DNA of 64,000 nucleotides, taken from the NCBI GenBank assembly GCA_903843285.1, contig CAIMPC010000007.1, positions 28,730 to 92,729 on the forward strand, written 5' to 3'. Source of the DNA: Candidatus Omnitrophota bacterium. GTDB lineage: Bacteria; Omnitrophota; Gorgyraeia; 2-01-FULL-45-10. The position numbers and the translations under genes are program-made. Positions 31,491 through 51,894 of the stretch are shown here, in pieces (the stretch's first letter is position 1; every line of letters starts with the position of its first letter). The notes beneath the pieces were generated by a model. That model made no database searches, was not told the origin of the DNA, and saw only the letters and a list, made by a program, of their open reading frames with translations.

Positions 31491-31507
31491 CGCGAAAGGA
31501 AATAATC

Positions 31508-35830: not shown

Positions 35831-35867
35831 TATTTGCGTGCATTTCAAGACAATAGAGGGGCTTATC

Positions 35868-36866
35868 ATGATAGTTGATGTGGGAAAAGTCTTTAAAAAC
35901 AAGAAGGTTATGATAACCGGCGGCCTCGGCTTCATCGGCAGTACACTGGCGAACCGACTGGTCGGGCATGCCTCCGAAATCATGCTTGTCGATTCGTTGC
36001 TTCCCGACTATGGAGGTAACTTATTTAACATAACCGGCATCGAGAGCCGTGTGAAAGTTAATATATCCGATGTTAGGGATGAATCCAGTATGCTTTATCT
36101 CGTTAAAGGGCACGATTATATCTTTAATCTGGCCGGCACGTTGAGTCACATCGACAGCATGAAGGATCCATATACTGATCTGGAGATTAACTGCAAAAGC
36201 CAGTTGACCATACTTGAAGCATGCAGAAAGAATAACCCCGAAGTAAAAATAGTATTCTCCGGGACAAGGGGACAGTACGGTAAGGCACAGTACCTGCCGG
36301 TCGATGAGAAGCATCCGATGTGTCCCACTGATGTCAACGGTATCAATAATATGGCCGGGGAATGGTACCATATTCTTTATAATAATGTTTACGGAATACG
36401 CGCGACGTCGCTTCGGCTTACCAATACTTATGGGCCTCGCCACCAGATGAAACATTCGAAACAGGGTTATCTTAATTGGTTTGTGAGGCTTGCCATGGAA
36501 GGCATGGAGATACCCATCTATGGCGACGGGGCTCAAAGAAGAGACTTTAATTATGTGGACGATGTGGTCGATGCTCTTCTGGCCGCCGCAGCGACAGATG
36601 AAACTAATGGTCAAGTATACAATGTCGGATCCGGGGCGCCTATAAGTGTACTGGATTCCCTTAAGGCTGTTATTAAAATCGCGAAGAGAGGGTCATATAA
36701 GGTAATCCCTTTTCCGGAGGAAAAAAAGAAGATAGAGATCGGCGACTACTTTGCTGACCATTCAAAACTTAGTAAAGCTACCGGATGGGCACCGAAGATG
36801 GGTTTTGAAGAGGGGCTTAAAAAGACTGTTGGATTCTATGAGAATAACAAAAAATACTATTGGTAG
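35868..36866 (+). CDS. NAD-dependent sugar epimerase/dehydratase (extended SDR)
   Basis: The track ORF starts at 35838. ATG at 35868 with GAGGGG RBS upstream. ITGGLGFIGS. YGKAQ (YxxxK). NTYGPR. Confidence 0.75.
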   Translation: MIVDVGKVFKNKKVMITGGLGFIGSTLANRLVGHASEIMLVDSLLPDYGGNLFNITGIESRVKVNISDVRDESSMLYLVKGHDYIFNLAGTLSHIDSMKDPYTDLEINCKSQLTILEACRKNNPEVKIVFSGTRGQYGKAQYLPVDEKHPMCPTDVNGINNMAGEWYHILYNNVYGIRATSLRLTNTYGPRHQMKHSKQGYLNWFVRLAMEGMEIPIYGDGAQRRDFNYVDDVVDALLAAAATDETNGQVYNVGSGAPISVLDSLKAVIKIAKRGSYKVIPFPEEKKKIEIGDYFADHSKLSKATGWAPKMGFEEGLKKTVGFYENNKKYYW

Positions 36867-37974
36867 TAGGATCCTCGTCTCGGATCTGAAGAGGTCTTAC
36901 CGTGCGCAAAGTCGCGAGATAGATAAGGCAGTACTTCGGGTCCTCAATAGCGGCTGGTATATTCTGGGCTACGAGCTTGAGGCGTTCGAGAACGAATTTG
37001 CCCGTTATAATGGTTCACGGTACGCGGTCGGTGTCGCGTCAGGTACCGAAGCCATCCAGTTGGCGCTTATGTCATTGTCGATAGGAAGAGGTGACGAGGT
37101 TATAACGGCCGTAAATACAGCTATCCCCACTGCTATGGCCATAATATCAGCGGGTGCCAGGCCCAGGTTTGTAGATGTAGATGAGGGAACCGCGAATATA
37201 AATACGGATGCGCTTGCCGAAGCAATAACTAGAAGAACCAAGGCGATAATTCCGGTCCACCTGTATGGCAACCCATGTAATATCGATGAGGTGTTGAATG
37301 TATCCAGAAAACATCGGATAGCTGTTGTCGAGGACTGCGCTCAGGCACACGGCGCTAAGTATAAGAACAAGATGGTAGGGACCTTTGGAGATGTAGGCAC
37401 ATATAGTTTTTATCCCACTAAAAATCTGGGATGCTACGGCGACGGCGGCGCAGTAGTTACTGATAGCAAAGTCTTATCCAAGAAAATAGGATTGCTGAGA
37501 AATTATGGACAGCCGACCAGATATGTTTGCGATATAGAGGGAATTAACAGCAGGCTCGATGAAATCCAGGCCGCAATACTGAGGGTCAAATTACAATATC
37601 TCAGCCGTTCTATAGTCAGAAGGATAGAGATCGCCGCCTTATATGAAAAATGCTTAAAAGGTATTTCAGAAATTAAGTGTCCCTCAGCGGCAAAAAATTC
37701 ACGGCATTCATTTCATCTGTATGTTATCAGATGTTCACGCCGCAACGATTTAAAAGAATCGCTCGCTAAGAATGGGATCGAAACTCAAATACATTATCCG
37801 ATATCGCTTCATTTGCAAAAGGCATTCAAGCATCTGGGGTACGGTAAAGGCGATTTCCCTGTTGCCGAGAAGCTCTCCAGGGAGATATTGAGCCTGCCGA
37901 TATTTCCGGAATTGAAGGATGCCGAAGTAATTAAAATATGCGGATATATAGCGGAATTTTATAAAGGTATATGA
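36838..37974 (+). CDS. DegT/DnrJ-family PLP-dependent sugar aminotransferase
   Basis: The track ORF starts at 36751, overlapping the upstream gene. Likely ATG at 36838 (MRITKNTIGSRILVSDLKRSY). GVASGTEAIQLAL. YSFYPTKNLG (Lys). INSRLDEIQAAIL. LSLPIFPEL. Confidence 0.82.
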   Translation: MRITKNTIGSRILVSDLKRSYRAQSREIDKAVLRVLNSGWYILGYELEAFENEFARYNGSRYAVGVASGTEAIQLALMSLSIGRGDEVITAVNTAIPTAMAIISAGARPRFVDVDEGTANINTDALAEAITRRTKAIIPVHLYGNPCNIDEVLNVSRKHRIAVVEDCAQAHGAKYKNKMVGTFGDVGTYSFYPTKNLGCYGDGGAVVTDSKVLSKKIGLLRNYGQPTRYVCDIEGINSRLDEIQAAILRVKLQYLSRSIVRRIEIAALYEKCLKGISEIKCPSAAKNSRHSFHLYVIRCSRRNDLKESLAKNGIETQIHYPISLHLQKAFKHLGYGKGDFPVAEKLSREILSLPIFPELKDAEVIKICGYIAEFYKGI

Positions 37975-37996
37975 TCTATAAATAAGGTTTTTGTTA

Positions 37997-39869: not shown

Positions 39870-41276
39870 ATGACCGAAACAGCAAAAAAATCCGGGATAA
39901 AAAAAGCAGCATTTATTTATCTCACGCAGACCTCCGAAGTCTACTACCTTGGAAACGATGTAGGATATAGCGTTCAGAGGCGTCCCCAGCTTGGCTTGCA
40001 GTATCTCTGCGCTGTTCTCGAGAAGAGGGGTATTGGCACAAATATTTTCGATCAGACAGTCACGCCTTTCAGCTTCGACCAGTTGGCAGAAAAGCTAAAA
40101 GAGTACGATATGGCGGGATTCTATTGCTCCGATCCTCAGGAAGAGAAGGTGAAGATATGGTGCAAGCGCTTGAAAGAAATTATGGATATCCCTTTACTTG
40201 TCGGAGGGCCATGTACGCTTAATAACGCGACCTTTTTGGACCATGGATGTGACGTAGTCGTACATGGAGAGGCCGAGACAACTATCGGAGACCTGGTCGA
40301 CTATTTTAATGGAAGTAAAGACATTAAAGAGGTAAAAGGCATTTCGTATAAAAACGAGAATAATATAGTGACTGCGCCGCCTCAGGACCTGATACAGGAT
40401 CTGGACAAAATACCTTTTCCTGACAGGTCGAAAGTAGATATTAATGCATACCATGATTACTTCTTATTTGGGATGAGAAAGCCCTATATAACAGTAATAG
40501 CCTCGCGAGGCTGCGCACATAAGTGCTATTTCTGCACCTCTTTTAAAATATGGGGCCGTAAATACAGGAGAAGAAGTGTCGATAATGTCATTGCGGAGAT
40601 AGATGATGCAATCAGCAAGTATGGCGCAAAATATATCGCTTTCCAGGATGATATTTTCGGTATGACAAACGATTGGATCGAAGATTTCAGTAATAAATTG
40701 ATCAAGAAGCCTTACAGAATAAAATGGATGGCGATATTGCATCCGTTTAATTTAAGAACGGACACGGAAAGGATCTTGCGGCTTATGAAAAAGGCCGGAT
40801 GTGACACCCTTTCGTTCGGTCTGCAATCTGCCCATTCTGCGGTACTAAAAAATACAAATCGCGATCCCGGTGAGCCTGACGCGCTTGCGCACCTGCTTAA
40901 GATCGCCAAACGGCTGGGTTTTGTGACGGCTGTCGCGTACATATTCGGATTGCCTGGCGATACCAGGGAGACGGTACAGGCTACGATAGATTATTCGCTG
41001 GAGTGTGGTTCATCGGTGGCTAACTATTTCATGCTCTTCGTTCTCAGAGGATCTGATATGGAGACGCTTTATAAGGATAAAAAGATATGTGAATTATCCA
41101 GCAAGGAGATAGAAGACCTCGCTACGCACGCATCGAAGAGATTTTACATGAGGCCGGAAACCATTTTCAGACTGGCATGTTTTATGATCAGAAATCCCAG
41201 CTGGCTGATCGGTGTAGGAAAGAACCTGCCATCGATTCTTGCCCGAGTCGGTTTCAGCAAGGCTAAGGATAAATAG
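39870..41276 (+). CDS. B12-binding-domain radical SAM enzyme (paralog 2)
   Basis: N-terminal B12-binding-like domain (PLLVGGPCT, VVVHGEAETT). CxxxCxxC in ASRGCAHKCYFCTS. 468 aa. Confidence 0.8.
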   Translation: MTETAKKSGIKKAAFIYLTQTSEVYYLGNDVGYSVQRRPQLGLQYLCAVLEKRGIGTNIFDQTVTPFSFDQLAEKLKEYDMAGFYCSDPQEEKVKIWCKRLKEIMDIPLLVGGPCTLNNATFLDHGCDVVVHGEAETTIGDLVDYFNGSKDIKEVKGISYKNENNIVTAPPQDLIQDLDKIPFPDRSKVDINAYHDYFLFGMRKPYITVIASRGCAHKCYFCTSFKIWGRKYRRRSVDNVIAEIDDAISKYGAKYIAFQDDIFGMTNDWIEDFSNKLIKKPYRIKWMAILHPFNLRTDTERILRLMKKAGCDTLSFGLQSAHSAVLKNTNRDPGEPDALAHLLKIAKRLGFVTAVAYIFGLPGDTRETVQATIDYSLECGSSVANYFMLFVLRGSDMETLYKDKKICELSSKEIEDLATHASKRFYMRPETIFRLACFMIRNPSWLIGVGKNLPSILARVGFSKAKDK

Positions 41277-41285
41277 GAGATTTAT

Positions 41286-42221
41286 ATGAAAATCAGCGTT
41301 GTTATTCCCGTGTATCAGGGTGCGAGGACCATAGGTACACTTACGGATGAGCTGGTGGCGCATTTAAAATCATATATACTTGAAGTTGTGCTGGTTAATG
41401 ACGGAAGCACGGATAACAGCGATGAGGAGTGCCGCAAGCTCTTCAAGAAATATCCGTCTATTGTTAAGTACATATGCCTTGCCAAAAATTTCGGAGAGCA
41501 TAATGCGGTGCTGGCGGGGTTGAACAATGTCACTGGTGATTACACCGTTATCATCGATGATGATTTCCAGAATCCTCCTGAAGAGATAGACAAGCTTGTC
41601 GAAAAAGCTGTGAGCTCCGGACTTGATGTCGTTTACGGTTATTATGAGAAAAAGAAGCATTCCTTATTCAGGAATATCGGATCGGGCTTCAATAATGCAG
41701 TGGCTAATTGCCTGCTTAATAAGCCGGGAGATCTTTATCTTTCGAGTTTCAAATGTATGAGCAGATTTATTGTTTCAGAAGTTATAAAATATAACGGGCC
41801 ATTTCCATACATAGACGGCCTGATACTGCGAAGCACCAAAAATATCGGTAAAGTGCTAGTCAGACACGAAAAGAGGCAGAGGGGCAGGTCCGGATACACT
41901 CTAAGGAAGCTGGTCCGGCTATGGGTCAATATGTTTGTTAATTTTTCAATCTATCCGTTAAGAATGAGTACACTGCTGGGAGTACTATTTTCGATACTGG
42001 GAGCATGTCTTACGGTATTTTTTGTTATCGATAAAATAGTCCATCCCAACATGCCGGTCGGAGTGGCTGCGATATTGACTTCTACGTTGACATTTGCCGG
42101 TGTACAGATGTTGATGCTCGGCATGATGGGAGAATACTTGGGAAAGCTATTCATGACAAATAACCAGACCCCGCAATATGTCATACGCCATATTTTGAGC
42201 CATGATAATGATAAAAAATGA
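41286..42221 (+). CDS. GT2 polyprenyl-phosphate sugar synthase (GtrB/ArnC-like) with C-terminal TM anchor
   Basis: ISVVIPVYQGA. LVNDGSTDNS. IIDDDFQNP (DxD). C-terminal TM helices (LLGVLFSILGACLTVFFVI; VAAILTSTLTFAGVQMLMLGMMGEYL). Confidence 0.8.
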   Translation: MKISVVIPVYQGARTIGTLTDELVAHLKSYILEVVLVNDGSTDNSDEECRKLFKKYPSIVKYICLAKNFGEHNAVLAGLNNVTGDYTVIIDDDFQNPPEEIDKLVEKAVSSGLDVVYGYYEKKKHSLFRNIGSGFNNAVANCLLNKPGDLYLSSFKCMSRFIVSEVIKYNGPFPYIDGLILRSTKNIGKVLVRHEKRQRGRSGYTLRKLVRLWVNMFVNFSIYPLRMSTLLGVLFSILGACLTVFFVIDKIVHPNMPVGVAAILTSTLTFAGVQMLMLGMMGEYLGKLFMTNNQTPQYVIRHILSHDNDKK

Positions 42222-43101
42222 AAATATGAGTTATCCTAAAAGAGAGTGTCCCCTGTGCAAAAAAAAGGGTCGGGAGATATTGTATAAGCTGGATGAGTTT
42301 AACATCGTAAGGTGTGATGGCTGCGGCCTTATCTTCAGAGATATTATCCTGTCGGCCGAGTTTGCGAAACAGCTGTACTCAGGAGACTATTTTACGAACG
42401 AGCAGGCCGACTACTTCTTCAATTATCCGAAAGAGAAAGAGGATATCTTCCGGTCCCGCATACAGATGCTTGAGCCTTACGAGCCGGAAGGCAGAAATAT
42501 GCTAGACATCGGCTGTGCTATAGGGACTTTCCTGAAGATTGCCAGAGAATGTGGATGGGAGACCAGAGGGATAGAGACTTCGGAATATGCCTCCGGATAC
42601 GCCAGGGATAATTACGGACTGGATGTAATTTGCGGAGAATTCGACGCTGAAAAATTTTCCGAGGAAGATAAGTTTGATGTGATAACGATGTGGGATGTAG
42701 TGGACCATGCGGAAGATCCGATAAAATTCCTGAAGGATGCAGCCTCTCTCCTGAAAAAGAACGGCTACATGTTCGTAGAAACGACCATGGAGGATAGCCT
42801 GGTATATACGATATGCAACTATATTTACCGGTTATCATTTGGACTTATCAAGCTTCCGGTCATGAGAGGGCATCCTGTCCATCACTCGACATTTTTTTCC
42901 AGACAGACAATGCGGAAGGCGCTGGAACAATGCGGCATGAAGATTAAGGCCGTGGTGCCAACGAAATATCCCGAAAAATTCTTCCCTGGAAGTCATTTCA
43001 GTAAAATGTTATTCAAACTGTTCTATGCCCTGGGAAATAAGTTTGACAGGCCTCTCGTAGTTACTTTCGTCGTGCAAAAAAACAAGGTGATTGACGGATG
43101 A
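42202..43101 (+). CDS. Class I SAM-dependent methyltransferase with N-terminal zinc ribbon
   Basis: CPLCKK...CDGCGLIF zinc ribbon. Motif I MLDIGCAIGTF. DVITMWDVVDH. Alternative starts at 42208 and 42226. Confidence 0.72.
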   Translation: MIMIKNENMSYPKRECPLCKKKGREILYKLDEFNIVRCDGCGLIFRDIILSAEFAKQLYSGDYFTNEQADYFFNYPKEKEDIFRSRIQMLEPYEPEGRNMLDIGCAIGTFLKIARECGWETRGIETSEYASGYARDNYGLDVICGEFDAEKFSEEDKFDVITMWDVVDHAEDPIKFLKDAASLLKKNGYMFVETTMEDSLVYTICNYIYRLSFGLIKLPVMRGHPVHHSTFFSRQTMRKALEQCGMKIKAVVPTKYPEKFFPGSHFSKMLFKLFYALGNKFDRPLVVTFVVQKNKVIDG

Positions 43102-44063
43102 AAAAGCCGCGCGTTCCAGCCATGAAATATCCGCTTCTCCTTATATACAGGATCGTGGGAATCATTTTCAGGCAGGATGGCCGGATCGCCAAAAGGCTGC
43201 CCGATTATTTCCCGACATATAGATCTTTTTTCGGAGAATTACTGAACCAGTTTTTCAGGCTCATGGGAATGCCCAGGTCCTTCCAGCCACAAGGCGTTAT
43301 ATTGGAGCCCACGAATTCCTGCAACCTTAAGTGCGAACACTGCAGCGCGCGGATCAACGAAGAGAAGAGGGGGTTTATGGAGTATGATTTTTATACACAT
43401 ATTATCGATTCAAACCCCCAGATCACCTGTTTGATGCTAAGCAGGTACGGTGAACCGTTGCTCCATCCCAGGATCTTTGATATGATCACCTATGCCAAAA
43501 GAAAGGGCATATACGTCTTCTTATACACGAACGGCACGTTGCTCTCGGAGAAGATGAGCGATATGATACTGTCAAGCGGCCTCGACGAGATATTCTTTTC
43601 TCTGGAAGGTACCGGTGAAGATTATGAGAAGAACAGAGGGTTCCAATACGAAAAGTTAAAGGATAGTATGGAGCATCTGATCCGGAAAAAAGAAACGGCC
43701 GGATCGGATATTAAGATAGGGATCAATGTCGCAGGTTTAGATGGTATTGATCGCAGGCTCGATGCGGTAAGGCGGGAGTGGGGCGATAAGGTGACTTATG
43801 TGGAAACAGAACCGTTAATAGGCACCAAATCATCCCCCAGAGACAGAAGCTGCCGCACTTTATGGAGGAACGCGGTAATACGATGGGATGGTATTGTATT
43901 CCCGTGCTGCATAGATATGAATAGCAGCCTCGCGATAGGTGACGCGAAGAAAAATACGCTGAAAGAGATATTTAACGGTCCGGAGGCTTTGTCGCTCAGG
44001 CGGCGGCACCTGGAAAAGAGATTTCCCTCGGTGTGTAAAACCTGCGATAAAATGTTTGGTTAG
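43098..44063 (+). CDS. Radical SAM enzyme with C-terminal SPASM/twitch auxiliary-cluster domain
   Basis: CxxxCxxC in EPTNSCNLKCEHCSA. Cys-rich C-terminus CRTLWRNAVIRWDGIVFPCCIDMN...SVCKTCDKMF consistent with SPASM/twitch. No B12 domain. 321 aa. Confidence 0.75.
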   Translation: MKKPRVPAMKYPLLLIYRIVGIIFRQDGRIAKRLPDYFPTYRSFFGELLNQFFRLMGMPRSFQPQGVILEPTNSCNLKCEHCSARINEEKRGFMEYDFYTHIIDSNPQITCLMLSRYGEPLLHPRIFDMITYAKRKGIYVFLYTNGTLLSEKMSDMILSSGLDEIFFSLEGTGEDYEKNRGFQYEKLKDSMEHLIRKKETAGSDIKIGINVAGLDGIDRRLDAVRREWGDKVTYVETEPLIGTKSSPRDRSCRTLWRNAVIRWDGIVFPCCIDMNSSLAIGDAKKNTLKEIFNGPEALSLRRRHLEKRFPSVCKTCDKMFG

Positions 44064-44076
44064 AAGAGCCAATTAA

Positions 44077-45528
44077 ATGAATAATTATGATAGAGCCGGT
44101 TTTAAAGTCTTATTGATCAGCCCTCCATTGTCGGTGGCTAAGCAGGCGGGCAGCCTGAAGGGCATAGCTAATGTCCTGCCAACCATGGGAATAGGCTATA
44201 TAGCGTCCCTGCTGGAAAGGCATGGAATAGGTGTGCGCATATTTGATTACATCGGGGAGCCCAAGATCCTCGAGGATATGCTCAAGGACATATCGGATGC
44301 ATCCCCGGACATAATAGGCATAACGGCTACCATCCTTACCATCTCAACCTCGAATGAGCTTGCAGAAGAGATCAGGAACAGGTTTCCGGGTATACCGATT
44401 ATTATCGGCGGGCCGCAGTTATGCTCGGCTCCCGAAAAGACGATGAGTTCCGGTCCTTACGATATCGGAGTGGTCGGAGAGGGGGAAGAGACGATGCTTG
44501 AGCTCTCCAATGCGATCAAGTCCGGCGTAAAGGATTTTAGCGGTATAAGAGGGCTTATAATCAAGAAGGATGGAAAGCTTGTCTTCACAGCGCCCAGGCC
44601 TTATATCGAAGATCTGGACCTCTTACCTCCTCCGGCCCGGCATCTCTACCCCCCCCTCCATAAATATAATCCGGTACCCGCTTCATACATAAAGAAACCG
44701 GTTGGCCTTATGATATCGTCGAGGGGATGTCCATATCAATGCATATTTTGCGACAGGAAAGTATTCGGAAATAAGTTCAGGGCTCATTCTCCAAAATATG
44801 TCGTGGATGAGATGGAGAACGTGATCAATGTGCACGGTGCCCGCGAAATACGTTTCATGGATGATACTTTTACTCTCGACATAAAAAGAGTGGATGAGAT
44901 ATGCGATGAGATACTAAAGAGAAGAATTAAAGTCCCGTGGACGTGCCTTACGCGCGTTAATACCGTAAACCTGGAGATCCTTAAGAAGATGAAGAAGGCG
45001 GGGTGCTGGCAGGTAATATACGGTATAGAGGCGGGTGACCAGCGGATGCTTGATATCATTAAGAAAGGCGTTACCGTAGAACAGAATGAAACGGGTATCA
45101 AGCTTGCGAAGAGAGCGGGGCTTAATGTCAGGGCGACATTCGTATTTGGCCTTCCCGGAGAGACTCTCGATACCATAAAAAATACGGTTAATTTCGCAAA
45201 GAGGATGAATCTCGATGTGGTGAATTTTTTTACCGTGATACTATTCCCGGGCAACGAGCTTTACTCCATGGCCAAAAAGGCGGGGAAGATACTTCATGAG
45301 AATTACGACGAATATACGTCACTCATAGATACGGAAGAGACCCATCTGCATTACGTACCCGAAGGCATCACTGAGATCCAGATGAAGAACGCGATAGTTG
45401 AAGCCTACAGGACCTACTATTTCAGGCCGGGCTATATACTGCGGCAATTGTTTTCTATAAAGAACGCGGAAGATATACTTCGCTACTGGACAGCATTTAA
45501 GTCGGTAGTCTCGATGAGGAAGGTTTAA
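44077..45528 (+). CDS. B12-binding-domain radical SAM enzyme (paralog 3)
   Basis: N-terminal B12-binding-like domain (IIIGGPQ, VVGEGEET). CxxxCxxC in SSRGCPYQCIFCD. DLDLLPPPARHL motif shared with paralogs 4 and 5. 483 aa. Confidence 0.8.
   Translation: MNNYDRAGFKVLLISPPLSVAKQAGSLKGIANVLPTMGIGYIASLLERHGIGVRIFDYIGEPKILEDMLKDISDASPDIIGITATILTISTSNELAEEIRNRFPGIPIIIGGPQLCSAPEKTMSSGPYDIGVVGEGEETMLELSNAIKSGVKDFSGIRGLIIKKDGKLVFTAPRPYIEDLDLLPPPARHLYPPLHKYNPVPASYIKKPVGLMISSRGCPYQCIFCDRKVFGNKFRAHSPKYVVDEMENVINVHGAREIRFMDDTFTLDIKRVDEICDEILKRRIKVPWTCLTRVNTVNLEILKKMKKAGCWQVIYGIEAGDQRMLDIIKKGVTVEQNETGIKLAKRAGLNVRATFVFGLPGETLDTIKNTVNFAKRMNLDVVNFFTVILFPGNELYSMAKKAGKILHENYDEYTSLIDTEETHLHYVPEGITEIQMKNAIVEAYRTYYFRPGYILRQLFSIKNAEDILRYWTAFKSVVSMRKV
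44649..44656 (+). repeat. Homopolymeric C8 tract inside B12-rSAM paralog 3
   Basis: cta-cccccccc-tcc at 44649-44656 encodes Y-P-P-L in HLYPPLHKY. It is the longest homopolymer G/C run noticed in the window. Confidence 0.5.
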
Positions 45529-45530
45529 CA

Positions 45531-46643
45531 ATGCTTCAAGAGCTAAAAGGGTTAATAAAGAAACAGTACAATTATATAAATGTCTTCAAAGCCTACTCCG
45601 TTCCCACGCTATTAAAAGAGATCTTTCTCTTCCCGAAAGACCTTATGTCGGGCTCCGGTAAAAGCTCCGGCCTATTGAACGTGGCGCTCTTTGTTACGAC
45701 AAGGTGCAATGCTCGCTGCGCTATGTGCAATATAACCGACATATTGAATGACAGCGGCAACACTGACATATCACTCGAAAAGATAGCATCATTTCTGGAT
45801 GATATTGCGCGCTACAAGCCGAGCATAATACTCTTTGGAGGAGAGCCTTTCGTAAGAAAAGATATTCCGGACATAGTGCGCTTAGTCAATGAGAGAGGGC
45901 TAACATCAGGTATATTTACAAACGGCACGTTACTTAATGTAGAGTTGATCAAAAAATTGATCGAATCCGGATTGGGCCACATAGCGTTTTCGCTGCAGGG
46001 GAACAGGGATATACACGACTCTATACTCTCCGTTCCCGGCGCTTACGACAAGATGATAAATAATATAAGGGCCTTCACATCTATTAAGCCCAGAGGCACC
46101 AGCGTTATCACGCATACCACTATATGCGAATATAATTTAAATTGCCTAAGTGAAGTGGCCAGGACGGCATTAGGCCTCGGGGTTGATCTCGTCAGGTTCG
46201 GGCACCCGACTTTCTTTTCTACCGCTGAGGAAAGGCGCTCGAACGAATGCTTGAAGTCCGTATTTAAAGACTCCAAACAGATAAAAGCGACAAGCTACAT
46301 ATATGATATCCGGGGCAAGGAAATAATATATCTTGAGAAGATAAAGCAGTTAAAGGCTGAATTCGGCGGCAGGATCTCGTTTACACCTGAGTTGGGCGAA
46401 AAAGAACTGGCGGCATGGTACTCCCCGGACTTCAGATCAGGAAGAAATTGCCTCTTCATGTGGAGAGGACTTTTTGTACGCCCGAACGGGGATGCCTATC
46501 CATGCGAGTCGATCAGCTATAAGATGGGAAATGTGTTCGAAGACGGTTTTTCTAAGGTATGGAACGGGCCAAAGTACAGGGAATTCAGGCGAGTTTTAAA
46601 AAAAGGCCTTCTCCCGGCTTGCGCCAGATGCTGCAAATTATAA
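45531..46643 (+). CDS. Radical SAM enzyme with C-terminal SPASM/twitch-like Cys cluster
   Basis: CxxxCxxC in VTTRCNARCAMCN. C-terminal NCLFMWRGLFVRPNGDAYPCES...PACARCCKL. No B12 domain. 370 aa. Confidence 0.72.
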   Translation: MLQELKGLIKKQYNYINVFKAYSVPTLLKEIFLFPKDLMSGSGKSSGLLNVALFVTTRCNARCAMCNITDILNDSGNTDISLEKIASFLDDIARYKPSIILFGGEPFVRKDIPDIVRLVNERGLTSGIFTNGTLLNVELIKKLIESGLGHIAFSLQGNRDIHDSILSVPGAYDKMINNIRAFTSIKPRGTSVITHTTICEYNLNCLSEVARTALGLGVDLVRFGHPTFFSTAEERRSNECLKSVFKDSKQIKATSYIYDIRGKEIIYLEKIKQLKAEFGGRISFTPELGEKELAAWYSPDFRSGRNCLFMWRGLFVRPNGDAYPCESISYKMGNVFEDGFSKVWNGPKYREFRRVLKKGLLPACARCCKL

Positions 46644-46655
46644 AGGGTTAAAATC

Positions 46656-48389
46656 ATGAAAAAGATCAAACAGAACCTGGCTTTATTATCCATAATCATT
46701 TCCGCCTTAGCGATCAGGCTGTACTCAATCTATGCCAATCTTCCTCTTATGTATTGGCACGATGAGAACAATTATATCGATAACGCTCTTCGTTTCGGCA
46801 CGGGAAACCTTGAATTAATAACCTTAACGCATGGCGCCCTGTATCAAATCGTCCTGTTTTTAGGATATTCGGGCTATTATGTTTTCGGAAAGATTGCGGG
46901 TTTTTTCCATTCTCCGATCGATCTATATTTGGGATACCTGAAGGATCCGACCAGTTTATTTCTGATAGCAAGAGGTATTACCGTTATATGCGGTGTCGGA
47001 ACCGTATACCTGACTTATCTGGTAGGAAGAAAGATCTATGGCAGAAATATCGGCCTCGCAGCCGGACTTTTCGCCGGGTTCTCCTTATTGATGGTTCAGA
47101 TGTCTTCTCTGGCGCTAGCGGATGTGCCATCAGTATTTATTTTAATGTTATCCTTCATATCTATCGTATACAGCATTGAAAAGCCGGGAGAGGTTAGGTT
47201 CTATTATGCCGCGGCAGTTCTCATCGGCCTGGCCGCCGCATGCAAATATTTCACCGTATTCGGCATTGCTCCGTTATATGTAGCTGCATTTATCAAGGGT
47301 CAGCATCTCGAGCACAGGGCAAAAGGTATCTTACGGCTCATAATGTGCGGCTCTTTTTTCGTATTTCTAGGCTCTTTTATAGGCATGCCTTTCTTTTTAT
47401 TGAATCTGGATAGATTTTACCAGGAGGCGATCCTTAGTAATAGCGGCGCGTATATTCTTACAAATACAAATGAAAACATCTGGCTCTTTTATTTCACCAA
47501 TCACATACGAAATGGCTTAGGCGTGCCGCTCGGAATTTTATCAGTATGCGGTATCCTTTATGCTATGTATAAGCGTTCAAAATGGGATATACTTCTTGTC
47601 TCCACTCCGATCGCGCATTACATCCTTTTCATGCATTCTACCGGATTTGCGTATCACCTGCTTCCGGTAATACCCTTTATGTTCATCCTGTCGGCAAGGC
47701 TCCTATATTCCGTTATTAATAAATTATTTCCAAAATTTGTGACGCCTGTATTTGTATGCGCTTGTATAATGATCGTTATTCCGACAGCTTGCGATTCGGT
47801 GAAGTTCATGAAAGTGATCTCCGGCCCGGACACCAGAACCATAGCGAAGGTCTGGATAGAGAAGAATATTCCGGCGGGCGCAGAAATACTCGAAGAAGGC
47901 TATATCTCCGCTATTCCGATACACGGGCCGGTGCTGACGGATAATTTGAAAACCCTCAGAAGGGACCTTGACTCCGCGGTCTTGGCAGGCGGGAGCGGTA
48001 TTCCATTAAAGATGAGAATGGAGAACTTCGACCGGCTGTATGCCGGGAGTAAGTTATATGATATGTTTAAGAAGTACGCGATATCGGCTGATGAGGCAAA
48101 AAGCACCAGCGCCTCGTATATCATAATATCGGGTGATAATGATAATCCTACTGGGCCCGAATTCAATTATTCTATGCCAAAAAATTATTATGAAGAGCGT
48201 GAAAAAATGATGAATATTGTCCTTTCGCGATATGAGCTTATCAAGTCATTTGCGCCTTCTTACCAAATGACGGCGTGGGTGCCTCACATGTCGGACCTGG
48301 ACTATGTTGCGCTGAGATCTGTGAAATGGGACAATCTTAAAGATTACATAAAAGGTCCCAGGATAGATGTCTTTAAACTAAGAGGGTGA
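46656..48389 (+). CDS. GT-C glycosyltransferase, PMT_2/ArnT-like, with C-terminal soluble domain
   Basis: 577 aa. N-terminal polytopic region with LAIRLYSI...YWHDENNY (acidic periplasmic-loop motif) and RGITVICGVGTVYLTYLVGRKIYG, typical of GT39/GT83. ~200-aa hydrophilic C-terminal domain. Confidence 0.65.
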   Translation: MKKIKQNLALLSIIISALAIRLYSIYANLPLMYWHDENNYIDNALRFGTGNLELITLTHGALYQIVLFLGYSGYYVFGKIAGFFHSPIDLYLGYLKDPTSLFLIARGITVICGVGTVYLTYLVGRKIYGRNIGLAAGLFAGFSLLMVQMSSLALADVPSVFILMLSFISIVYSIEKPGEVRFYYAAAVLIGLAAACKYFTVFGIAPLYVAAFIKGQHLEHRAKGILRLIMCGSFFVFLGSFIGMPFFLLNLDRFYQEAILSNSGAYILTNTNENIWLFYFTNHIRNGLGVPLGILSVCGILYAMYKRSKWDILLVSTPIAHYILFMHSTGFAYHLLPVIPFMFILSARLLYSVINKLFPKFVTPVFVCACIMIVIPTACDSVKFMKVISGPDTRTIAKVWIEKNIPAGAEILEEGYISAIPIHGPVLTDNLKTLRRDLDSAVLAGGSGIPLKMRMENFDRLYAGSKLYDMFKKYAISADEAKSTSASYIIISGDNDNPTGPEFNYSMPKNYYEEREKMMNIVLSRYELIKSFAPSYQMTAWVPHMSDLDYVALRSVKWDNLKDYIKGPRIDVFKLRG

Positions 48390-49879
48390 AGCGCATTATG
48401 AAGGTAACCCTGATATACCCTTTGCTTTCCAGAAAGCGCGCGAGGGTAGACGAAAATAAGCAGTTCTGGCCGCCGCTCGGGTTGGCCTATATAGCCGCTG
48501 TACTTGAAAAGGAGTCCCATAATGTCGAAATAATAGATAGGGACTTATCATTACGCAAGAATGGCCTTGATTTCGATAAGACAGACCTGGATACGCTGGA
48601 GCATATAAGATCTTTTAATTCGGAAATTGTCGGGATCAGCGTTACTACTCCAAACATGCCGGACGTTATTCATATTTCGAATCTTATTAAGCAATATTTC
48701 CCGAATATAGCAGTAGTCGTAGGCGGCCCCCATGTTTCAGGTGAGCCGCTTCTTACTCTTAAAGAAGCGGGATCTGTAGATGTTGCGGTCGGGGGCGAAG
48801 GGGAATTGACTATGTTGGAACTTGCCTCCGGTAAAAGCTGTTCTTCCATAAGCGGTATAATCTATAGAAAAGACGGGGGTATTATCACTAATCCCGACAG
48901 GCCGCTTATTGCCGATATTGACACGCTTCCTTTGCCGGCAAGGCATCTACTGGATATGAAATCTTACACAAGGCCGTCCAGGTTCACGAGCCGGAACCTT
49001 AATCTAAGGACAACATCGATCTTTACGGCCAGGGGTTGTCCTTACAGGTGCAATTTTTGCGCCGGTCCTTTGGTATTCAAAGGTAAAGTCCGTTTTCATT
49101 CCATGGATCGTGTGGCAAAGGAGATAGAGGAACTAATATCGAAATATGACATAGAGGCGCTCTATTTCGCCGAGGATATGTTTTTGAGCTCCAGGAAAAG
49201 GGCGGAGGAGCTGCTCGGACTTTTCGTCGAAAAAGGAATATCCAAAAGAATAAAATGGATAGCGCAGGCTAAGGCAAGTATCGTCACGGAAGATCTGCTA
49301 CGCCTCATGAAAGAGGCGGGATGCGTCGGCGTGGAATACGGTTTTGAGTCCGGATCGCAGAGGGTCCTTGATCTAATGAACAAGAAGCAGAAGATAGAGG
49401 AGAGTTTAAGGGCGGCTCAGCTGACGAGGAAGGCGCATCTGCGGTTCCAGGCGAATATCATAACCGGCTATCCGGGCGAAACTGCCGAGGATTTCAGGCA
49501 AACACTTAAGTTTATAAAAACAATTCGTCCGAACATGATAGGCTTTAATATCTTCATGCCGTTGCCGGGCACTCCGAGCTACGAGCAGTTGAAGCGTGAG
49601 GGAAAACCCCTACCCAATTGGGAAGACGTCGGAGACCAGGAGGCTTCTCAGGCCAGTTATGCTGATATGCCGGAGGGCATGTTTGAAAGGCTCTATCTCG
49701 AGGCCAGGCTTAAAGTCATATTACCGATAAATCTTAAAAATTTCATTAAGGATAACGCTAAGCATCCTCTAAGGCTTATCAGTATTGCGCTTACTCAGTT
49801 CAGCGGTGTTCTTGTCAAAGCAGTGCGTATGAGCGTAAGGCTTATCTTCATGAATAAGAAGGCGAAAGACCCTGCATGA
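48386..49879 (+). CDS. B12-binding-domain radical SAM enzyme (paralog 4)
   Basis: B12-binding-like N-domain (VVVGGPHVSG, AVGGEGELT). DIDTLPLPARHLL. CxxxCxxC in TARGCPYRCNFCAG. Alternative start at 48398. ATGA overlap with the upstream gene. Confidence 0.8.
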   Translation: MKRIMKVTLIYPLLSRKRARVDENKQFWPPLGLAYIAAVLEKESHNVEIIDRDLSLRKNGLDFDKTDLDTLEHIRSFNSEIVGISVTTPNMPDVIHISNLIKQYFPNIAVVVGGPHVSGEPLLTLKEAGSVDVAVGGEGELTMLELASGKSCSSISGIIYRKDGGIITNPDRPLIADIDTLPLPARHLLDMKSYTRPSRFTSRNLNLRTTSIFTARGCPYRCNFCAGPLVFKGKVRFHSMDRVAKEIEELISKYDIEALYFAEDMFLSSRKRAEELLGLFVEKGISKRIKWIAQAKASIVTEDLLRLMKEAGCVGVEYGFESGSQRVLDLMNKKQKIEESLRAAQLTRKAHLRFQANIITGYPGETAEDFRQTLKFIKTIRPNMIGFNIFMPLPGTPSYEQLKREGKPLPNWEDVGDQEASQASYADMPEGMFERLYLEARLKVILPINLKNFIKDNAKHPLRLISIALTQFSGVLVKAVRMSVRLIFMNKKAKDPA

Positions 49880-51111: not shown

Positions 51112-51153
51112 ACATAGTTAAAGCCGAAGCATTTTTACATGAAAAGGAGCGAT

Positions 51154-51888: not shown

Positions 51889-51894
51889 AAGAGA

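What the first reader, a model, noticed from the sequence alone, without database searches (positions are those of the whole stretch)
43098..46643. Two SPASM/twitch radical SAM enzymes in a carbohydrate context (BtrN-like sugar dehydrogenase/epimerase candidates rather than peptide maturases)
Seen: the ORFs at 43098 and 45531 have CxxxCxxC (NSCNLKCEHC; TTRCNARCAMC) and Cys-rich C-termini typical of auxiliary Fe-S (SPASM/twitch) domains. No small precursor-peptide ORF is nearby. Their neighbours are sugar aminotransferases, GTs and B12-rSAMs. Established: SPASM/twitch rSAMs are best known from RiPP maturation and anSME. BtrN, a twitch rSAM, oxidises an aminocyclitol hydroxyl in butirosin biosynthesis. 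Inference: these enzymes likely do radical oxidation or epimerisation of a sugar hydroxyl. That would generate keto intermediates for the adjacent transaminases and extend the aminoglycoside-like chemistry of the locus.
Basis: partly seen in the sequence, partly recalled or inferred. Interest (0 to 1): 0.68.

Follow-up and report, generated by a model that had tools for sequence, protein, structure and literature searches.

The report
Two sugar-tailoring twitch radical SAM enzymes
Two uncharacterised iron-sulfur "radical SAM" enzymes sit inside a gene cassette, conserved in several little-known microbial phyla, that builds and exports an amino sugar for the cell surface, so they most likely modify a sugar rather than a peptide.

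Summary
ORF-A (43098-44063, 321 aa) and ORF-B (45531-46643, 370 aa) are real radical SAM proteins. Each has a CX3CX2C motif and a C-terminal Fe-S domain with five invariant cysteines.

That domain is a truncated SPASM, or "twitch", domain with room for one auxiliary cluster. A and B are two distinct families (26% identity over 120 aa). Neither reaches any NCBIfam cut-off.

There is no precursor peptide gene: intergenic gaps are at most 82 nt over 36 kb. There is no RRE-like domain and no sulfatase.

B travels across Omnitrophota, Verrucomicrobia and Nanoarchaeota with five partners:
- a B12-radical SAM (44077);
- an SDR-like protein (35838);
- a DegT 4-aminotransferase (36751);
- an ArnC-like polyprenyl-phosphate GT2 (41286);
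- a GT-C transferase (46656).

Close relatives of B are fused to GT2 glycosyltransferases. The best solved relative of the A family is BtrN, and all four BtrN auxiliary-cluster cysteines align.

A glycan or sugar substrate is therefore well supported. The actual reaction (oxidation, epimerisation or something else) is not determined. The idea that these enzymes feed keto sugars to the transaminases is unnecessary in this window. It is hinted at only by a degenerate catalytic dyad in the co-inherited SDR.

Verdict: a new variant of a known kind, of moderate interest.

The parts
43098..44063 (+). ORF-A: twitch-type radical SAM enzyme, 321 aa. It has a three-helix N-terminal extension (residues 8-55), a radical SAM core and a C-terminal single-cluster Fe-S domain.
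   Evidence: Sequence C75X3C79X2C82. Pfam Radical_SAM and SPASM. Invariant C252/C270/C271/C313/C316. Family profile best PDB hit is BtrN, E 1e-15, with the four auxiliary-cluster ligands aligned. AF2 pLDDT 85. About 21 orthologs found, from Omnitrophota and Saganbacteria MAGs.
45531..46643 (+). ORF-B: twitch-type radical SAM enzyme, 370 aa, of a different family from A (26% identity over 120 aa).
   Evidence: Sequence C59X3C63X2C66. Pfam Radical_SAM, SPASM and Fer4_12. Invariant C307/C325/C364/C367/C368. TIGR04085 matched only at positions 5-64 of 93. AF2 pLDDT 93. About 100 orthologs at 40% identity or more. A/B identity.
44077..45528 (+). B12-binding radical SAM enzyme lying between A and B. 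It is the most constant partner of ORF-B and appears translationally coupled to it.
   Evidence: Pfam B12-binding and Radical_SAM. Best NCBIfam hit is HpnJ, 223 bits against a 578 cut-off, so it is not a member. Orthologs at 41-80% identity lie directly upstream of B in L005, L086, L087, L088 and L092. At least 20 of 41 B orthologs on contigs of 5 kb or more share a contig length with a hit of this family.
35838..36866 (+). Extended-SDR 'epimerase/dehydratase'-like protein. It keeps its NAD-binding site but has a degenerate catalytic dyad (NxxxN in place of YxxxK). It is co-inherited with ORF-B.
   Evidence: NCBIfam best hit is dTDP-glucose 4,6-dehydratase, 143 bits against a 365 cut-off. Alignment to GalE 4zrm puts Asn on both the Tyr and the Lys. 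Ortholog alignment. Orthologs lie next to B in L006, L087, L088 and L092.
36751..37974 (+). DegT/PseC/ArnB-type PLP sugar 4-aminotransferase. The called gene probably starts near 36838.
   Evidence: NCBIfam: PseC 253 bits, ArnB 229, WecE-type 217, all below cut-offs. Orthologs lie in the B loci L006, L088, L092 and L086.
41286..42221 (+). ArnC/GtrB-type GT2 that loads a sugar onto polyprenyl phosphate. It has two C-terminal transmembrane helices.
   Evidence: Best PDB hit is ArnC, E 9e-41 over the full length, then GtrB and DPMS. NCBIfam ArnC 160 bits against a 529 cut-off. Transmembrane segments at 224-253 and 258-278. Orthologs at 50-78% identity lie in L006, L088 and L092.
46656..48389 (+). 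GT-C fold membrane glycosyltransferase (PMT_2/ArnT-like). It is the presumed periplasmic transferase of the lipid-linked sugar.
   Evidence: Pfam PMT_2, 39 bits against a 26 cut-off. About 10 hydrophobic segments. Orthologs lie downstream of B in L087 and L088, and PMT_2 genes follow B in L092 and in contig 58WDTH1r. No PDB sequence hit.
42202..43101 (+). Class I SAM methyltransferase with an N-terminal Zn-ribbon, immediately upstream of A and overlapping it.
   Evidence: Pfam Methyltransf_23, E 4e-25. Orthologs in L088 (68%) and L086 (34%).
39870..41276 (+). B12-binding radical SAM enzyme, the second of five paralogues in the window.
   Evidence: Pfam. Ortholog at 79% in L088. A truncated remnant lies between B and A in L005.
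34433..35830 (+). B12-binding radical SAM enzyme, belonging to the cassette in L088.
   Evidence: NCBIfam BchE and HpnJ about 160 bits, below cut-offs. Ortholog at 71% inside the L088 cassette.
48386..49879 (+). B12-binding radical SAM enzyme followed by a GT4. The two are fused into one 903-aa protein in a related contig.
   Evidence: Pfam. Ortholog at 80% in L088. B12-rSAM::GT1 fusion in contig 58WDTH1r.
49876..51111 (+). GT4 (GT-B fold) glycosyltransferase.
   Evidence: Pfam Glycos_transf_1. Orthologs in L087 and L088.

Best explanation
ORF-A and ORF-B are two different, uncharacterised families of twitch-type radical SAM enzymes. Each has one SAM-binding [4Fe-4S] cluster plus one fully Cys-ligated auxiliary cluster. 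They tailor a sugar inside a conserved, Arn-like surface-glycan cassette.

Inferred route:
1. A nucleotide-activated hexose is taken to a 4-amino (probably 4-amino-4,6-dideoxy) sugar by the SDR-like protein 35838 and the DegT aminotransferase 36751.
2. The ArnC-like GT2 41286 loads it onto polyprenyl phosphate.
3. The GT-C enzyme 46656 transfers it to an envelope acceptor.
4. On the cytoplasmic side, before flipping, the sugar is remodelled by radical chemistry. The B12-radical SAMs most likely C-methylate or rearrange it.
5. The twitch enzymes abstract a sugar C-H with 5'-deoxyadenosyl radical. They then either pass the electron to the auxiliary cluster, giving a ketone (BtrN/SpeY type), or return an H atom from the spare invariant cysteine (A C271, B C368), giving an epimer (HygY/NeoN type).

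ORF-B works with, or directly after, the B12-radical SAM 44077.

Shown: domain make-up, cysteine conservation, absence of peptide-maturase features, conserved synteny, and fusions. Inferred: the substrate identity, the side of the membrane, and the reaction type.

My sub-probabilities: glycan or sugar substrate about 0.8; oxidation or epimerisation specifically about 0.4. The confidence given for this explanation (0.5) is for the whole statement taken loosely: sugar-tailoring twitch enzymes of this cassette, with oxidation or epimerisation as the leading reaction type.
For: Domains and cysteines.

Twitch rather than full SPASM: the proteins end after CX2C(C), and TIGR04085 is matched only over positions 1-65 of 93. 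The twitch definition is taken from PMC9012708.

BtrN link: the A-family profile hits BtrN at E 1e-15, four to five orders of magnitude better than the next PDB chain. C252, C270, C313 and C316 fall on BtrN's four auxiliary-cluster cysteines.

Conserved neighbourhood of B:
- L088: full cassette in the same order.
- Contig 58WDTH1r: SDR-DegT-GT2-A-B12-B-GT-C-[B12::GT1].
- L006, Verrucomicrobia: B-SDR-DegT-ArnC-like GT2 as a compact operon next to kdtA.
- L087: B12-B-SDR-GT2-GT-C.
- L092: GT2-SDR-DegT, divergent from B12-B-PMT_2.
- L086, Nanoarchaeota: B12-B with MT, DegT and GT2.
- L005: B12-B-A.

Fusions: GT2::twitch-rSAM with the same CX2CC tail (P0414), GT2::2x rSAM (P0396) and B12::4x rSAM (P0373) are among the best 150 of 1.84 billion representatives. 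GT4:: and carbamoyltransferase::rSAM-SPASM proteins lie beside a 33% B homolog.

GT2 41286 is ArnC-like over its full length and has two C-terminal transmembrane helices.

The SDR 35838 clade lacks Tyr and Lys in three of five lineages.

Precedents from the literature: BtrN oxidation with the auxiliary cluster as the proposed electron acceptor (PMC9012708). HygY is described as a twitch epimerase turned into a dehydrogenase by one Cys mutation; I saw only the title, as cited in PMC10991966.
Against: - No biochemical data exist for either family, and no NCBIfam model reaches its cut-off.
- Fold and sequence searches rank peptide-modifying enzymes (SkfB, SuiB, CteB, PqqE, anSME) as highly as sugar enzymes, and for B higher: SkfB E 7e-28 by profile.
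- Identity to BtrN is only about 18%.
- The spare cysteine is adjacent to a cluster ligand. It may simply be an alternative ligand; I could not inspect model coordinates.
- L087 keeps an intact YxxxK in its SDR and still has B, so B is not simply a substitute for the SDR.
- A occurs alone in a Saganbacteria sugar locus without B, GT2 or GT-C. A and B therefore need not act on the same intermediate.
- Synteny cannot tell a nucleotide-linked from a lipid-linked substrate. The P0414 fusion partner is a soluble GT2 without transmembrane helices.
Confidence: 0.5

Rival explanations
1. A and B act on sugars but do a different kind of radical chemistry. Candidates are deamination or 1,2-shift (DesII-like), decarboxylation (BlsE-like), ring contraction to a carbocycle (HpnJ- or calditol-synthase-like) or C-C coupling (TunB-like).
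For: - DesII acts on the product of a 4,6-dehydratase plus a 4-aminotransferase. That is the gene pair that travels with B.
- DesII and BlsE are among the top structural hits for both models.
- BlsE is B's best single-sequence PDB hit, E 7e-12.
- The window has two UDP-glucose dehydrogenases, which could supply uronic acids.
- The partner B12-rSAM scores best against HpnJ, the proposed ring-contraction enzyme acting on a lipid-linked glucosamine (PMC9204698; PMC13459092).
Against: - NCBIfam DesII scores 36 bits against a 450 cut-off for A, and is absent from B's top list.
- A fully Cys-ligated auxiliary cluster is typical of the electron-sink role seen in two-electron oxidations (PMC9012708).
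- L006 has no reductase or second aminotransferase to process a DesII-type 3-keto product.
Confidence: 0.25
2. The enzymes modify a lipid rather than the sugar. The target would be the polyprenyl carrier or a membrane lipid, by C-C coupling, methylation or saturation chemistry, as in GDGT-MAS/Tes, HpnR/HpnP or ladderane enzymes.
For: - B's radical SAM core has its highest local identity (26-27% over about 200 columns, rmsd 2.6-2.9) to the tetraether synthase GDGT-MAS, with E 1.7e-10 by sequence and 9e-20 by profile.
- The B12-rSAM partners score against HpnJ, HpnR and the 'lipid biosynthesis B12 rSAM' model.
- Both A and B have amphipathic or hydrophobic N-terminal helices.
- The family occurs in DPANN archaea and in bacteria with unusual envelopes.
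Against: - The constant partners are nucleotide-sugar enzymes (SDR, DegT) and glycosyltransferases, not isoprenoid or fatty-acid genes.
- Fusions are to GT2, GT4 and carbamoyltransferase domains.
- GDGT-MAS carries a full SPASM domain with extra clusters, unlike A and B.
- No transmembrane segments are found in A or B.
Confidence: 0.1
3. They are peptide or protein maturases (RiPP, anSME-like, or maturases of a locus protein such as the papain-like protease 51139 or the transglutaminase-like protein 51895).
For: - Most characterised SPASM/twitch enzymes act on peptides.
- SkfB, SuiB, CteB and PqqE rank high in sequence and fold searches.
- A Peptidase_C1 gene and a Transglut_core gene lie 4.5 kb downstream. 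The Transglut_core gene recurs in L087 and L088.
Against: - There is no room for a precursor gene.
- Small ORFs in related loci are gene remnants, not conserved peptides.
- There is no RRE/PqqD domain.
- There is no sulfatase, and anSME models score 16-20 bits against cut-offs of 349 and 441.
- L006 and L092 have B without the protease. L006 also lacks a Transglut_core gene; L092 has a TgpA-type Transglut_core gene about 7 kb upstream in a DUF58 cluster.
Confidence: 0.05
4. ORF-B is an accessory redox or scaffold partner of the B12-radical SAM 44077. It would deliver electrons or hold the substrate and would have no substrate chemistry of its own.
For: - Gene pairing with 44077 is tight, often overlapping by 4 bp or separated by 2 bp.
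- B12::multi-rSAM fusions exist (P0373).
- Intermolecular electron transfer between radical SAM proteins has been proposed (PMC10470005; abstract seen).
Against: - B keeps an invariant CX3CX2C and the GGEP SAM-binding motif in all orthologs.
- In L006, B occurs without any B12-rSAM nearby.
Confidence: 0.05

Closest known systems
BtrN (2-deoxy-scyllo-inosamine dehydrogenase, butirosin pathway; PDB 4M7T), the founding twitch radical SAM enzyme
   Same: Compact radical SAM core followed by a truncated SPASM domain with one [4Fe-4S] cluster on four cysteines. All four align with invariant Cys of ORF-A. BtrN is the best solved relative of the A family (profile E 1e-15), and its twitch domain is also hit by B. 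It acts on an amino-carbohydrate and feeds a transaminase.
   Different: About 18% identity. A and B carry 50-60-residue helical N-terminal extensions and a fifth invariant Cys; BtrN has Phe at the A C271 position. The context is a polyprenyl-phosphate surface-glycan cassette with B12-rSAMs, not an aminocyclitol antibiotic cluster. No reaction has been demonstrated.
HygY and NeoN (radical SAM sugar epimerases of hygromycin B and neomycin) and SpeY (twitch dehydrogenase, PDB 7WZV)
   Same: Radical SAM tailoring of unactivated sugar carbons in amino sugars. HygY and SpeY are described as twitch enzymes; whether NeoN has a twitch domain was not verified here. In HygY a single cysteine decides epimerase versus dehydrogenase outcome (title cited in PMC10991966). 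A and B each have one spare invariant Cys. SpeY appears in both hit lists.
   Different: Weak similarity (SpeY E 2e-3 to 7e-11). HygY and NeoN sequences could not be compared here. Their substrates are free pseudo-oligosaccharides in actinomycete secondary metabolism.
DesII and BlsE (radical SAM enzymes acting on TDP-4-amino-4,6-dideoxyglucose and cytosylglucuronate)
   Same: They act on nucleotide- or nucleoside-linked sugars. DesII follows a 4,6-dehydratase plus a 4-aminotransferase, the same gene pair that accompanies ORF-B. Both are top structural hits, and BlsE is B's best single-sequence PDB hit.
   Different: TM-scores are only 0.55-0.6. The DesII model scores 36 bits against a 450 cut-off. 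The chemistry is different (deamination, decarboxylation), and to my knowledge DesII has no twitch cluster.
Arn pathway of lipid A modification (ArnB, ArnC, ArnT)
   Same: A DegT-type 4-aminotransferase, an ArnC-like GT2 with two C-terminal transmembrane helices (best PDB hit ArnC, E 9e-41) and a GT-C/PMT_2 membrane transferase are arranged as one unit.
   Different: There is no ArnA formyltransferase/decarboxylase and no ArnD in the cassette. The SDR is 4,6-dehydratase-like with a degenerate dyad. All scores are below NCBIfam equivalog cut-offs. Up to six radical SAM genes are interleaved, which has no counterpart in Arn.
HpnI/HpnK/HpnJ (hopanoid cyclitol ether) and calditol synthase Cds
   Same: These are precedents for radical SAM enzymes remodelling an amino sugar or hexose that is already attached to a membrane lipid. 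The partner B12-rSAM 44077 scores best against HpnJ (223 bits; PMC9204698, PMC13459092).
   Different: 44077 is far below the HpnJ cut-off (578 bits). No hopanoid genes are present. HpnJ works without a twitch-type partner.

Membership tests
Radical SAM superfamily (PF04055) | CX3CX2C motif binding the SAM-cleaving [4Fe-4S] cluster, within a partial TIM-barrel core | tested here: met
   Motifs at A 75-82 and B 59-66 are invariant in orthologs. PF04055 scores 53 and 74 bits against a 29.5 cut-off. AF2 models give alternating beta/alpha cores.
Full SPASM domain enzymes (TIGR04085; two auxiliary clusters) | Seven-Cys motif CX9-15GX4C ... CX2CX5CX3C ... C, ligating AuxI and AuxII | tested here: not met
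   Only five C-terminal Cys are present: CX12GX4C(C) ... CX2C(C). The proteins end 5 residues (A) or 2 residues (B) after the last Cys. TIGR04085 aligns only over positions 1-65 (A, 23.8 bits, below the 27 cut-off) and 5-64 (B, 30.2 bits) of 93. PF13186, which covers only that first part, is met.
Twitch subclass of radical SAM enzymes | Truncated SPASM domain (beta-hairpin plus helix) binding a single auxiliary Fe-S cluster | tested here: met
   Four invariant Cys of A align with the four BtrN auxiliary-cluster ligands. B has the same spacing. The best NCBIfam hit of both C-terminal domains is the twitch domain of NF033640. The beta-hairpin is predicted at A 258-268 and B 313-323. Cluster content itself is not testable here.
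BtrN orthologs (DOIA dehydrogenase) | Close sequence relationship and a 2-deoxystreptamine pathway context (DOI synthase, BtrS/BtrR) | tested here: not met
   About 18% identity. E 3.5e-7 with the single sequence and 1e-15 with the profile. There are no aminocyclitol genes in the window. It may work like BtrN, but it is not a member.
RiPP radical SAM/SPASM maturases | Adjacent precursor peptide gene | tested here: not met
   Intergenic gaps are at most 82 nt over 26.4-63.0 kb. There are no free-standing small ORFs. Small ORFs in L005 and L087 are gene remnants.
RiPP radical SAM/SPASM maturases | N-terminal RRE (PqqD-like) peptide-recognition domain | tested here: not met
   No Pfam or NCBIfam hit on the N-terminal 50-66 residues. 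The AF2 models show helices only, with no three-stranded sheet.
Anaerobic sulfatase-maturating enzymes (anSME) | Family model score and a cognate sulfatase | tested here: not met
   With the isolated C-terminal domains, TIGR03942 scores 19.8 bits against a 349 cut-off (B) and PRK13758 scores 16 against 441 (A). No anSME model appears among the 25 best full-length NCBIfam hits of either protein. No sulfatase gene is in the window.
Named NCBIfam radical SAM/SPASM families (W-cofactor maturase, AhbD, NirJ, PqqE, MftC, DesII and others) | Score at or above the curated cut-off | tested here: not met
   Best for A: TIGR04317, 131 bits against 380. Best for B: AhbD, 97 bits against 500. DesII scores 36 bits against 450.
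Arn-type polyprenyl-phosphate amino-sugar pathway (context of the two genes) | A 4-aminotransferase, a Und-P GT2 with C-terminal transmembrane helices and a GT-C transferase, together with the ArnA and ArnD functions | tested here: inconclusive
   The first three are present at family level but all are below equivalog cut-offs. No ArnA-type formyltransferase or ArnD is in the cassette. A Polysacc_deac_1 gene lies downstream of the window.

The most novel reading that the evidence does not exclude
The cassette makes a so far unknown amino sugar tailored by radical SAM enzymes (C-methylated, oxidised or epimerised, possibly carbocyclic). The sugar is built on a polyprenyl-phosphate carrier and placed on the cell envelope by a GT-C enzyme, in Omnitrophota, Verrucomicrobiota and DPANN archaea. 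Within it, the twitch enzyme ORF-B has taken over the sugar-oxidation step from an SDR whose catalytic Tyr and Lys have decayed. This would bring aminoglycoside-type radical chemistry into primary envelope biogenesis.
Probability: 0.25. Interest if true: 0.8.

Novelty: new variant of a known kind. Interest (0 to 1): 0.55.

Why it matters
Radical SAM tailoring of sugars is known almost only from antibiotic pathways of actinomycetes and bacilli (BtrN, HygY, NeoN, SpeY, DesII, GenK).

Here two new twitch families and several B12-radical SAMs are built into a conserved unit together with the machinery that loads a sugar on polyprenyl phosphate and transfers it outside the membrane. The unit is shared by uncultured bacteria and nano-sized archaea. 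If the prediction holds, it points to a class of chemically unusual envelope sugars in anaerobic candidate phyla.

It also provides compact test systems. The four-gene Verrucomicrobia operon in L006 and the six-gene set in L092 could be expressed to assign functions to two orphan radical SAM families.

It is also a caution for genome mining: a SPASM or twitch hit does not by itself indicate a RiPP cluster.

Tried and rejected
- **NCBIfam and Pfam classification of A and B.** Only superfamily-level hits were found, and no family cut-off was reached.
- **Foldseek of both AF2 models against the PDB.** All SPASM/twitch and several plain radical SAM structures score E 1e-14 to 1e-9 with TM 0.45-0.62. 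This does not discriminate sugar from peptide enzymes.
- **Scan of GTDB genomes with the B alignment.** The first alignment was too diverse. The other 79 are 23-36% relatives of other families, and their neighbourhoods gave no clear signal without a baseline.
- **Metagenome scan with B.** This returned one further ortholog locus (L088).
- **RiPP reading.** Rejected after checking intergenic space and the small ORFs of related loci.
- **'Each transaminase needs a radical SAM oxidant'.** Rejected for this window, because conventional SDR/GFO_IDH partners and RmlA/RmlB are present.
- **Literature.** Searches for this cassette, and for radical SAM enzymes in O-antigen, undecaprenyl or Omnitrophota contexts, found nothing specific. 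The HygY paper is not held.
- **Source names.** The cluster look-up gave no source names for A, B or 44077. The Omnitrophota assignment rests only on named orthologs at 55-77% identity.
- **Model coordinates.** These are not exposed, so the distance of C271 and C368 from the SAM site could not be measured.

Full report
**What is in the sequence**

The finding spans three tightly packed genes on the + strand:
- ORF-A (43098-44063, 321 aa);
- a B12-binding radical SAM gene (44077-45528, 483 aa);
- ORF-B (45531-46643, 370 aa).

A carries C75X3C79X2C82 and B carries C59X3C63X2C66. Pfam finds Radical_SAM (E 6e-14 and 2e-20) and the SPASM domain PF13186 (E 4e-14 and 2e-15) in both, above the gathering scores. 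A's start codon overlaps the stop of the upstream methyltransferase. B starts 2 nt after the stop of the B12 enzyme, behind a GAGGAAGG ribosome-binding site. The three genes therefore look co-translated. A and B are only 26% identical over 120 residues, so they are two families and not a recent duplication.

**Wider setting**

The whole 64-kb window is transcribed in one direction. From about 14.6 kb onwards it is one very large surface-polysaccharide locus of a Gram-negative-type organism. It contains nucleotide-sugar dehydrogenases, RmlA/B/C/D-like genes and four DegT aminotransferases. It also contains six extended SDRs, acetyltransferases, a Wzx flippase, and GT2, GT4 and GT-C transferases. 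There are five B12-binding radical SAM genes in the window. Two more radical SAM genes and a heptosyltransferase lie just beyond it. The same contig is found in several metagenome assemblies. Orthologs of A, B and the B12 enzyme that carry a source name are labelled Candidatus Omnitrophica/Omnitrophota. That is the only basis for my taxonomic guess.

**Are the C-terminal cysteines real, and what kind of domain is it?**

In 20 A-family sequences (down to 36% identity) the invariant cysteines are the three of the SAM cluster plus C252, C270, C271, C313 and C316. In 91 and in 38 B-family sequences (down to 29% identity) they are the SAM-cluster three plus C307, C325, C364, C367 and C368.

Both proteins therefore have CX12GX4C(C) ... 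CX2C(C) and then end. The second half of the seven-cysteine SPASM motif is absent. The NCBIfam SPASM domain model is matched only over its first 65 of 93 positions. The best hit of both isolated C-terminal pieces is the twitch domain of NF033640.

[quoted passage not shown] Both proteins are therefore twitch enzymes.

**Not peptide maturases**

- Between 26.4 and 63.0 kb no intergenic gap exceeds 82 nt.
- All short ORFs around the genes lie inside longer genes.
- The N-terminal 50-66 residues of A and B match no family. The confident AF2 models (pLDDT 85 and 93) predict them as two or three helices without the beta-sheet of an RRE.
- Small ORFs near orthologs turned out to be remnants. The 52-aa ORF in L005 is the N-terminus of a decayed B12-rSAM, and the 49-aa ORF in L087 is a methyltransferase fragment.
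- There is no sulfatase. anSME models score 16-20 bits against cut-offs of 349 and 441.

**Comparative genomics: the main evidence**

The A family is small. About 21 orthologs were found among 5.8 billion cluster representatives, within the sensitivity of that search. The B family has about 100 orthologs at 40% identity or more. They include proteins labelled Omnitrophica, Verrucomicrobia, Nanoarchaeota and 'archaeon'.

I examined every context I could fetch:
- **L088** (B 63%) repeats the window's order gene for gene: SDR-like, DegT, MT, B12, B12, GT2, MT, A, B12, B, GT-C, B12, GT4.
- **Contig 58WDTH1r** (B 64%) has SDR-DegT-GT2-A-B12-B-GT-C. This is followed by a single 903-aa protein in which the next B12-rSAM is fused to the GT1-type transferase.
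- **L006**, a Verrucomicrobia MAG (B 57%), has the compact set B, SDR-like (56%), DegT (42%), ArnC-like GT2 (50%). It is flanked by housekeeping genes and lies convergent with kdtA.
- **L087** (B 49%) has B12 (64% to 44077), B, SDR-like, GT2, GT-C.
- **L092** (B 41%) has GT2 (56%), SDR-like (44%) and DegT (48%), divergently transcribed from B12 (41%), B and a PMT_2 gene.
- **L086**, a Nanoarchaeota contig (B 46%), has B12 (50%) and B with a methyltransferase, DegT, another rSAM-SPASM, a GT2 and a Wzx.
- **L005** (B 50%) has B12 (62%), B, a B12 remnant and A (46%) at a contig end.

As a cruder census, at least 20 of the 41 B orthologs that sit on contigs of 5 kb or more share their contig length with one of the top 120 relatives of 44077. 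A co-occurs with B on 7 of its 14 contigs of 5 kb or more. It is also found alone in a Saganbacteria sugar locus rich in SDRs, transketolase-like halves and B12-rSAMs.

The recurrent core is therefore: SDR-like 35838, DegT 36751, GT2 41286, B12-rSAM 44077, twitch rSAM B, and GT-C 46656. A and further B12-rSAMs, methyltransferases and a GT4 are frequent additions.

**Fusions**

A profile search of 1.84 billion representatives found 4096 relatives at E 1e-30 or better. Among the best 150 there are multi-domain proteins:
- P0414 is a GT2 fused to a B-like twitch enzyme with the same C-terminal CX2CC.
- P0396 is a GT2 fused to two rSAM-SPASM modules.
- P0373 is a B12 domain with four radical SAM domains.
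- Several others are tandem radical SAM arrays.

Next to a 33% B homolog in 'Candidatus Lernaella' there are GT4::rSAM-SPASM and carbamoyltransferase::rSAM-SPASM proteins. Together with the B12-rSAM::GT1 fusion, these link this branch of radical SAM enzymes physically to glycosyltransfer.

**What the partners say about the pathway**

- GT2 41286 aligns over its full length with ArnC (E 9e-41), then with GtrB and dolichol-phosphate mannose synthase. It has the two C-terminal membrane helices of that class.
- 46656 is a multi-span PMT_2/GT-C protein.
- DegT 36751 scores best against 4-aminotransferases (PseC, ArnB, WecE) and keeps the Schiff-base lysine context.

This is the logic of the Arn pathway: make a 4-amino sugar nucleotide, load it on polyprenyl phosphate, flip it, and transfer it with a GT-C enzyme. 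All scores are below NCBI's equivalog cut-offs, and ArnA and ArnD functions are missing. I therefore call it Arn-like in operation, not a member.

**A degenerate SDR**

The SDR-like protein 35838 keeps the GxxGxxG NAD site. Aligned to GalE, however, it has Asn on both the catalytic Tyr and the catalytic Lys (VNGINNMA). It has GTRG where dehydratases have STDE/STSE.

Across orthologs the dyad varies:
- NxxxN in the window, L088 (82%) and the Verrucomicrobia L006 (55%);
- YxxxS in L092;
- an intact YxxxK in L087.

The other five SDRs of the window are all canonical.

A plausible reading is that the redox role of this SDR has become dispensable in lineages where a radical SAM enzyme oxidises the sugar. 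L087 has both an intact SDR and B. The window has RmlA/RmlB, which can supply a 4-keto-6-deoxy sugar.

**Relation to characterised enzymes**

- With single sequences, A's best solved relative is BtrN (E 3.5e-7). B's best are BlsE (7e-12), GDGT-MAS, SkfB and CteB.
- With family profiles, A hits BtrN at 1e-15, well ahead of CteB (5e-11). Both domains align, and C252/C270/C313/C316 fall on BtrN's four auxiliary-cluster cysteines. The extra C271 faces a Phe in BtrN.
- The B profile hits SkfB (7e-28), CteB, PqqE, GDGT-MAS, BlsE and BtrN.
- Foldseek places DesII, BtrN, SuiB, SkfB, BlsE, anSME, SpeY, MoaA and viperins all within a narrow band.

The family resemblance is therefore clear, but it does not fix the reaction.

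Both A and B have four cysteines for a fully ligated auxiliary cluster plus one spare invariant cysteine. In BtrN the fully ligated, low-potential cluster is the proposed acceptor of the substrate-radical electron (PMC9012708). In HygY one cysteine decides between epimerisation and dehydrogenation; I saw only the title, as cited in PMC10991966. This is why I rank oxidation or epimerisation first. I give it only about 0.4.

**Most likely mechanism, with shown and inferred steps marked**

- Shown: the two twitch radical SAM families, their conserved cysteines, the absence of peptide-maturase hallmarks, the conserved cassette, and the fusions.
- Inferred:
  1. The substrate is the 4-amino(-6-deoxy)hexose of the cassette, as its nucleotide or polyprenyl-phosphate derivative, on the cytoplasmic face.
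  2. The 5'-deoxyadenosyl radical removes a sugar hydrogen.
  3. The radical is either oxidised through the auxiliary cluster or quenched from the opposite face by the spare cysteine.
  4. B acts in sequence with the B12 enzyme 44077, which by analogy with GenK, HpnJ and BchE methylates or rearranges the same sugar (PMC9204698).
  5. The finished sugar is flipped and attached by the GT-C enzyme.

**Rivals**

- Other sugar radical chemistry (DesII-, BlsE-, HpnJ- or Cds-like): 0.25.
- Lipid modification: 0.1.
- Peptide or protein maturation: 0.05.
- An accessory redox role for B: 0.05.

**Novelty and score**

Twitch radical SAM enzymes acting on amino sugars are an established kind. These two families are uncharacterised. 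Their embedding in a polyprenyl-phosphate/GT-C envelope pathway, together with several B12-radical SAMs, across bacterial candidate phyla and DPANN archaea, is not described in the literature I could search. I rate it a new variant of a known kind, interest 0.55. It is a solid, testable lead with good minimal systems, but the function is inferred from context only.

Noticed in passing
window 35838-36866 (also L088:121-1119, L006:11311-12309): The extended SDR co-inherited with ORF-B has Asn in place of both the catalytic Tyr and the catalytic Lys (YxxxK becomes NxxxN), and GTRG in place of STDE/STSE. It keeps the NAD-binding glycines. Orthologs in L092 have YxxxS, and in L087 YxxxK. The other five SDRs of the window are canonical.
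   Followed up: partly
window 34433-35830, 39870-41276, 44077-45528, 48386-49879, 58067-60688: There are five paralogous B12-binding radical SAM genes (24-32% identical to each other) in one polysaccharide locus. The last is an 873-aa fusion with a DUF2334 (polysaccharide-deacetylase-like) domain. Two further radical SAM genes lie just downstream of the window.
   Followed up: partly
related contig 58WDTH1r (no DNA held); proteins P0414, P0396, P0373, P0308, P0329, P0364: Fusion proteins occur among relatives: B12-rSAM::GT1 (903 aa), GT2::twitch rSAM (639 aa), GT2::2x rSAM-SPASM (1179 aa) and B12::4x rSAM (1927 aa). There are also tandem arrays of three to four radical SAM/SPASM modules in single polypeptides of 900-1450 aa.
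   Followed up: partly
window 51139-52626: A papain-family cysteine protease (Peptidase_C1) and a transglutaminase-core protein with an N-terminal hydrophobic segment sit inside the glycan locus. The transglutaminase-like gene recurs after the GT4 in L087 and L088, whereas the protease is replaced by an extra GT4 in L088. Their role in a glycan pathway is unexplained.
   Followed up: no
window 21483-22911: Three short consecutive, overlapping ORFs (182, 217 and 107 aa) lie here. The middle one carries a PMT_2 hit and weakly resembles GT-C 32377. This looks like a GT-C gene broken by frameshifts, either a pseudogene or an assembly error.
   Followed up: partly
window 31469-33729 and 41286-42221 / 46656-48389: There are two separate pairs of a polyprenyl-phosphate-type GT2 (each with C-terminal transmembrane helices) and a GT-C/PMT_2 transferase in the same locus. 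This suggests two different lipid-linked monosaccharide decorations.
   Followed up: no
L005:9662-10071: Between the B and A orthologs lies a truncated remnant of a 39870-type B12-rSAM. A 52-aa ORF matches its N-terminus, and an 86-aa frame is 57% identical to 39870. The cassette is decaying in that lineage.
   Followed up: yes
window 1-64000: Every credible gene in the 64-kb window is on the + strand, and cumulative GC skew rises monotonically from 0.17 to 3.74. GC content dips to 0.39-0.41 around 22-24, 28-30 and 32-34 kb, inside the polysaccharide locus.
   Followed up: no
window 37991-39184: An SGNH/GDSL-family protein with an N-terminal hydrophobic segment (probably exported) lies inside the cassette. 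It recurs at the end of the cassette in contig 58WDTH1r but is absent from L088. It is a possible periplasmic O-acyl transferase or esterase for the glycan.
   Followed up: no
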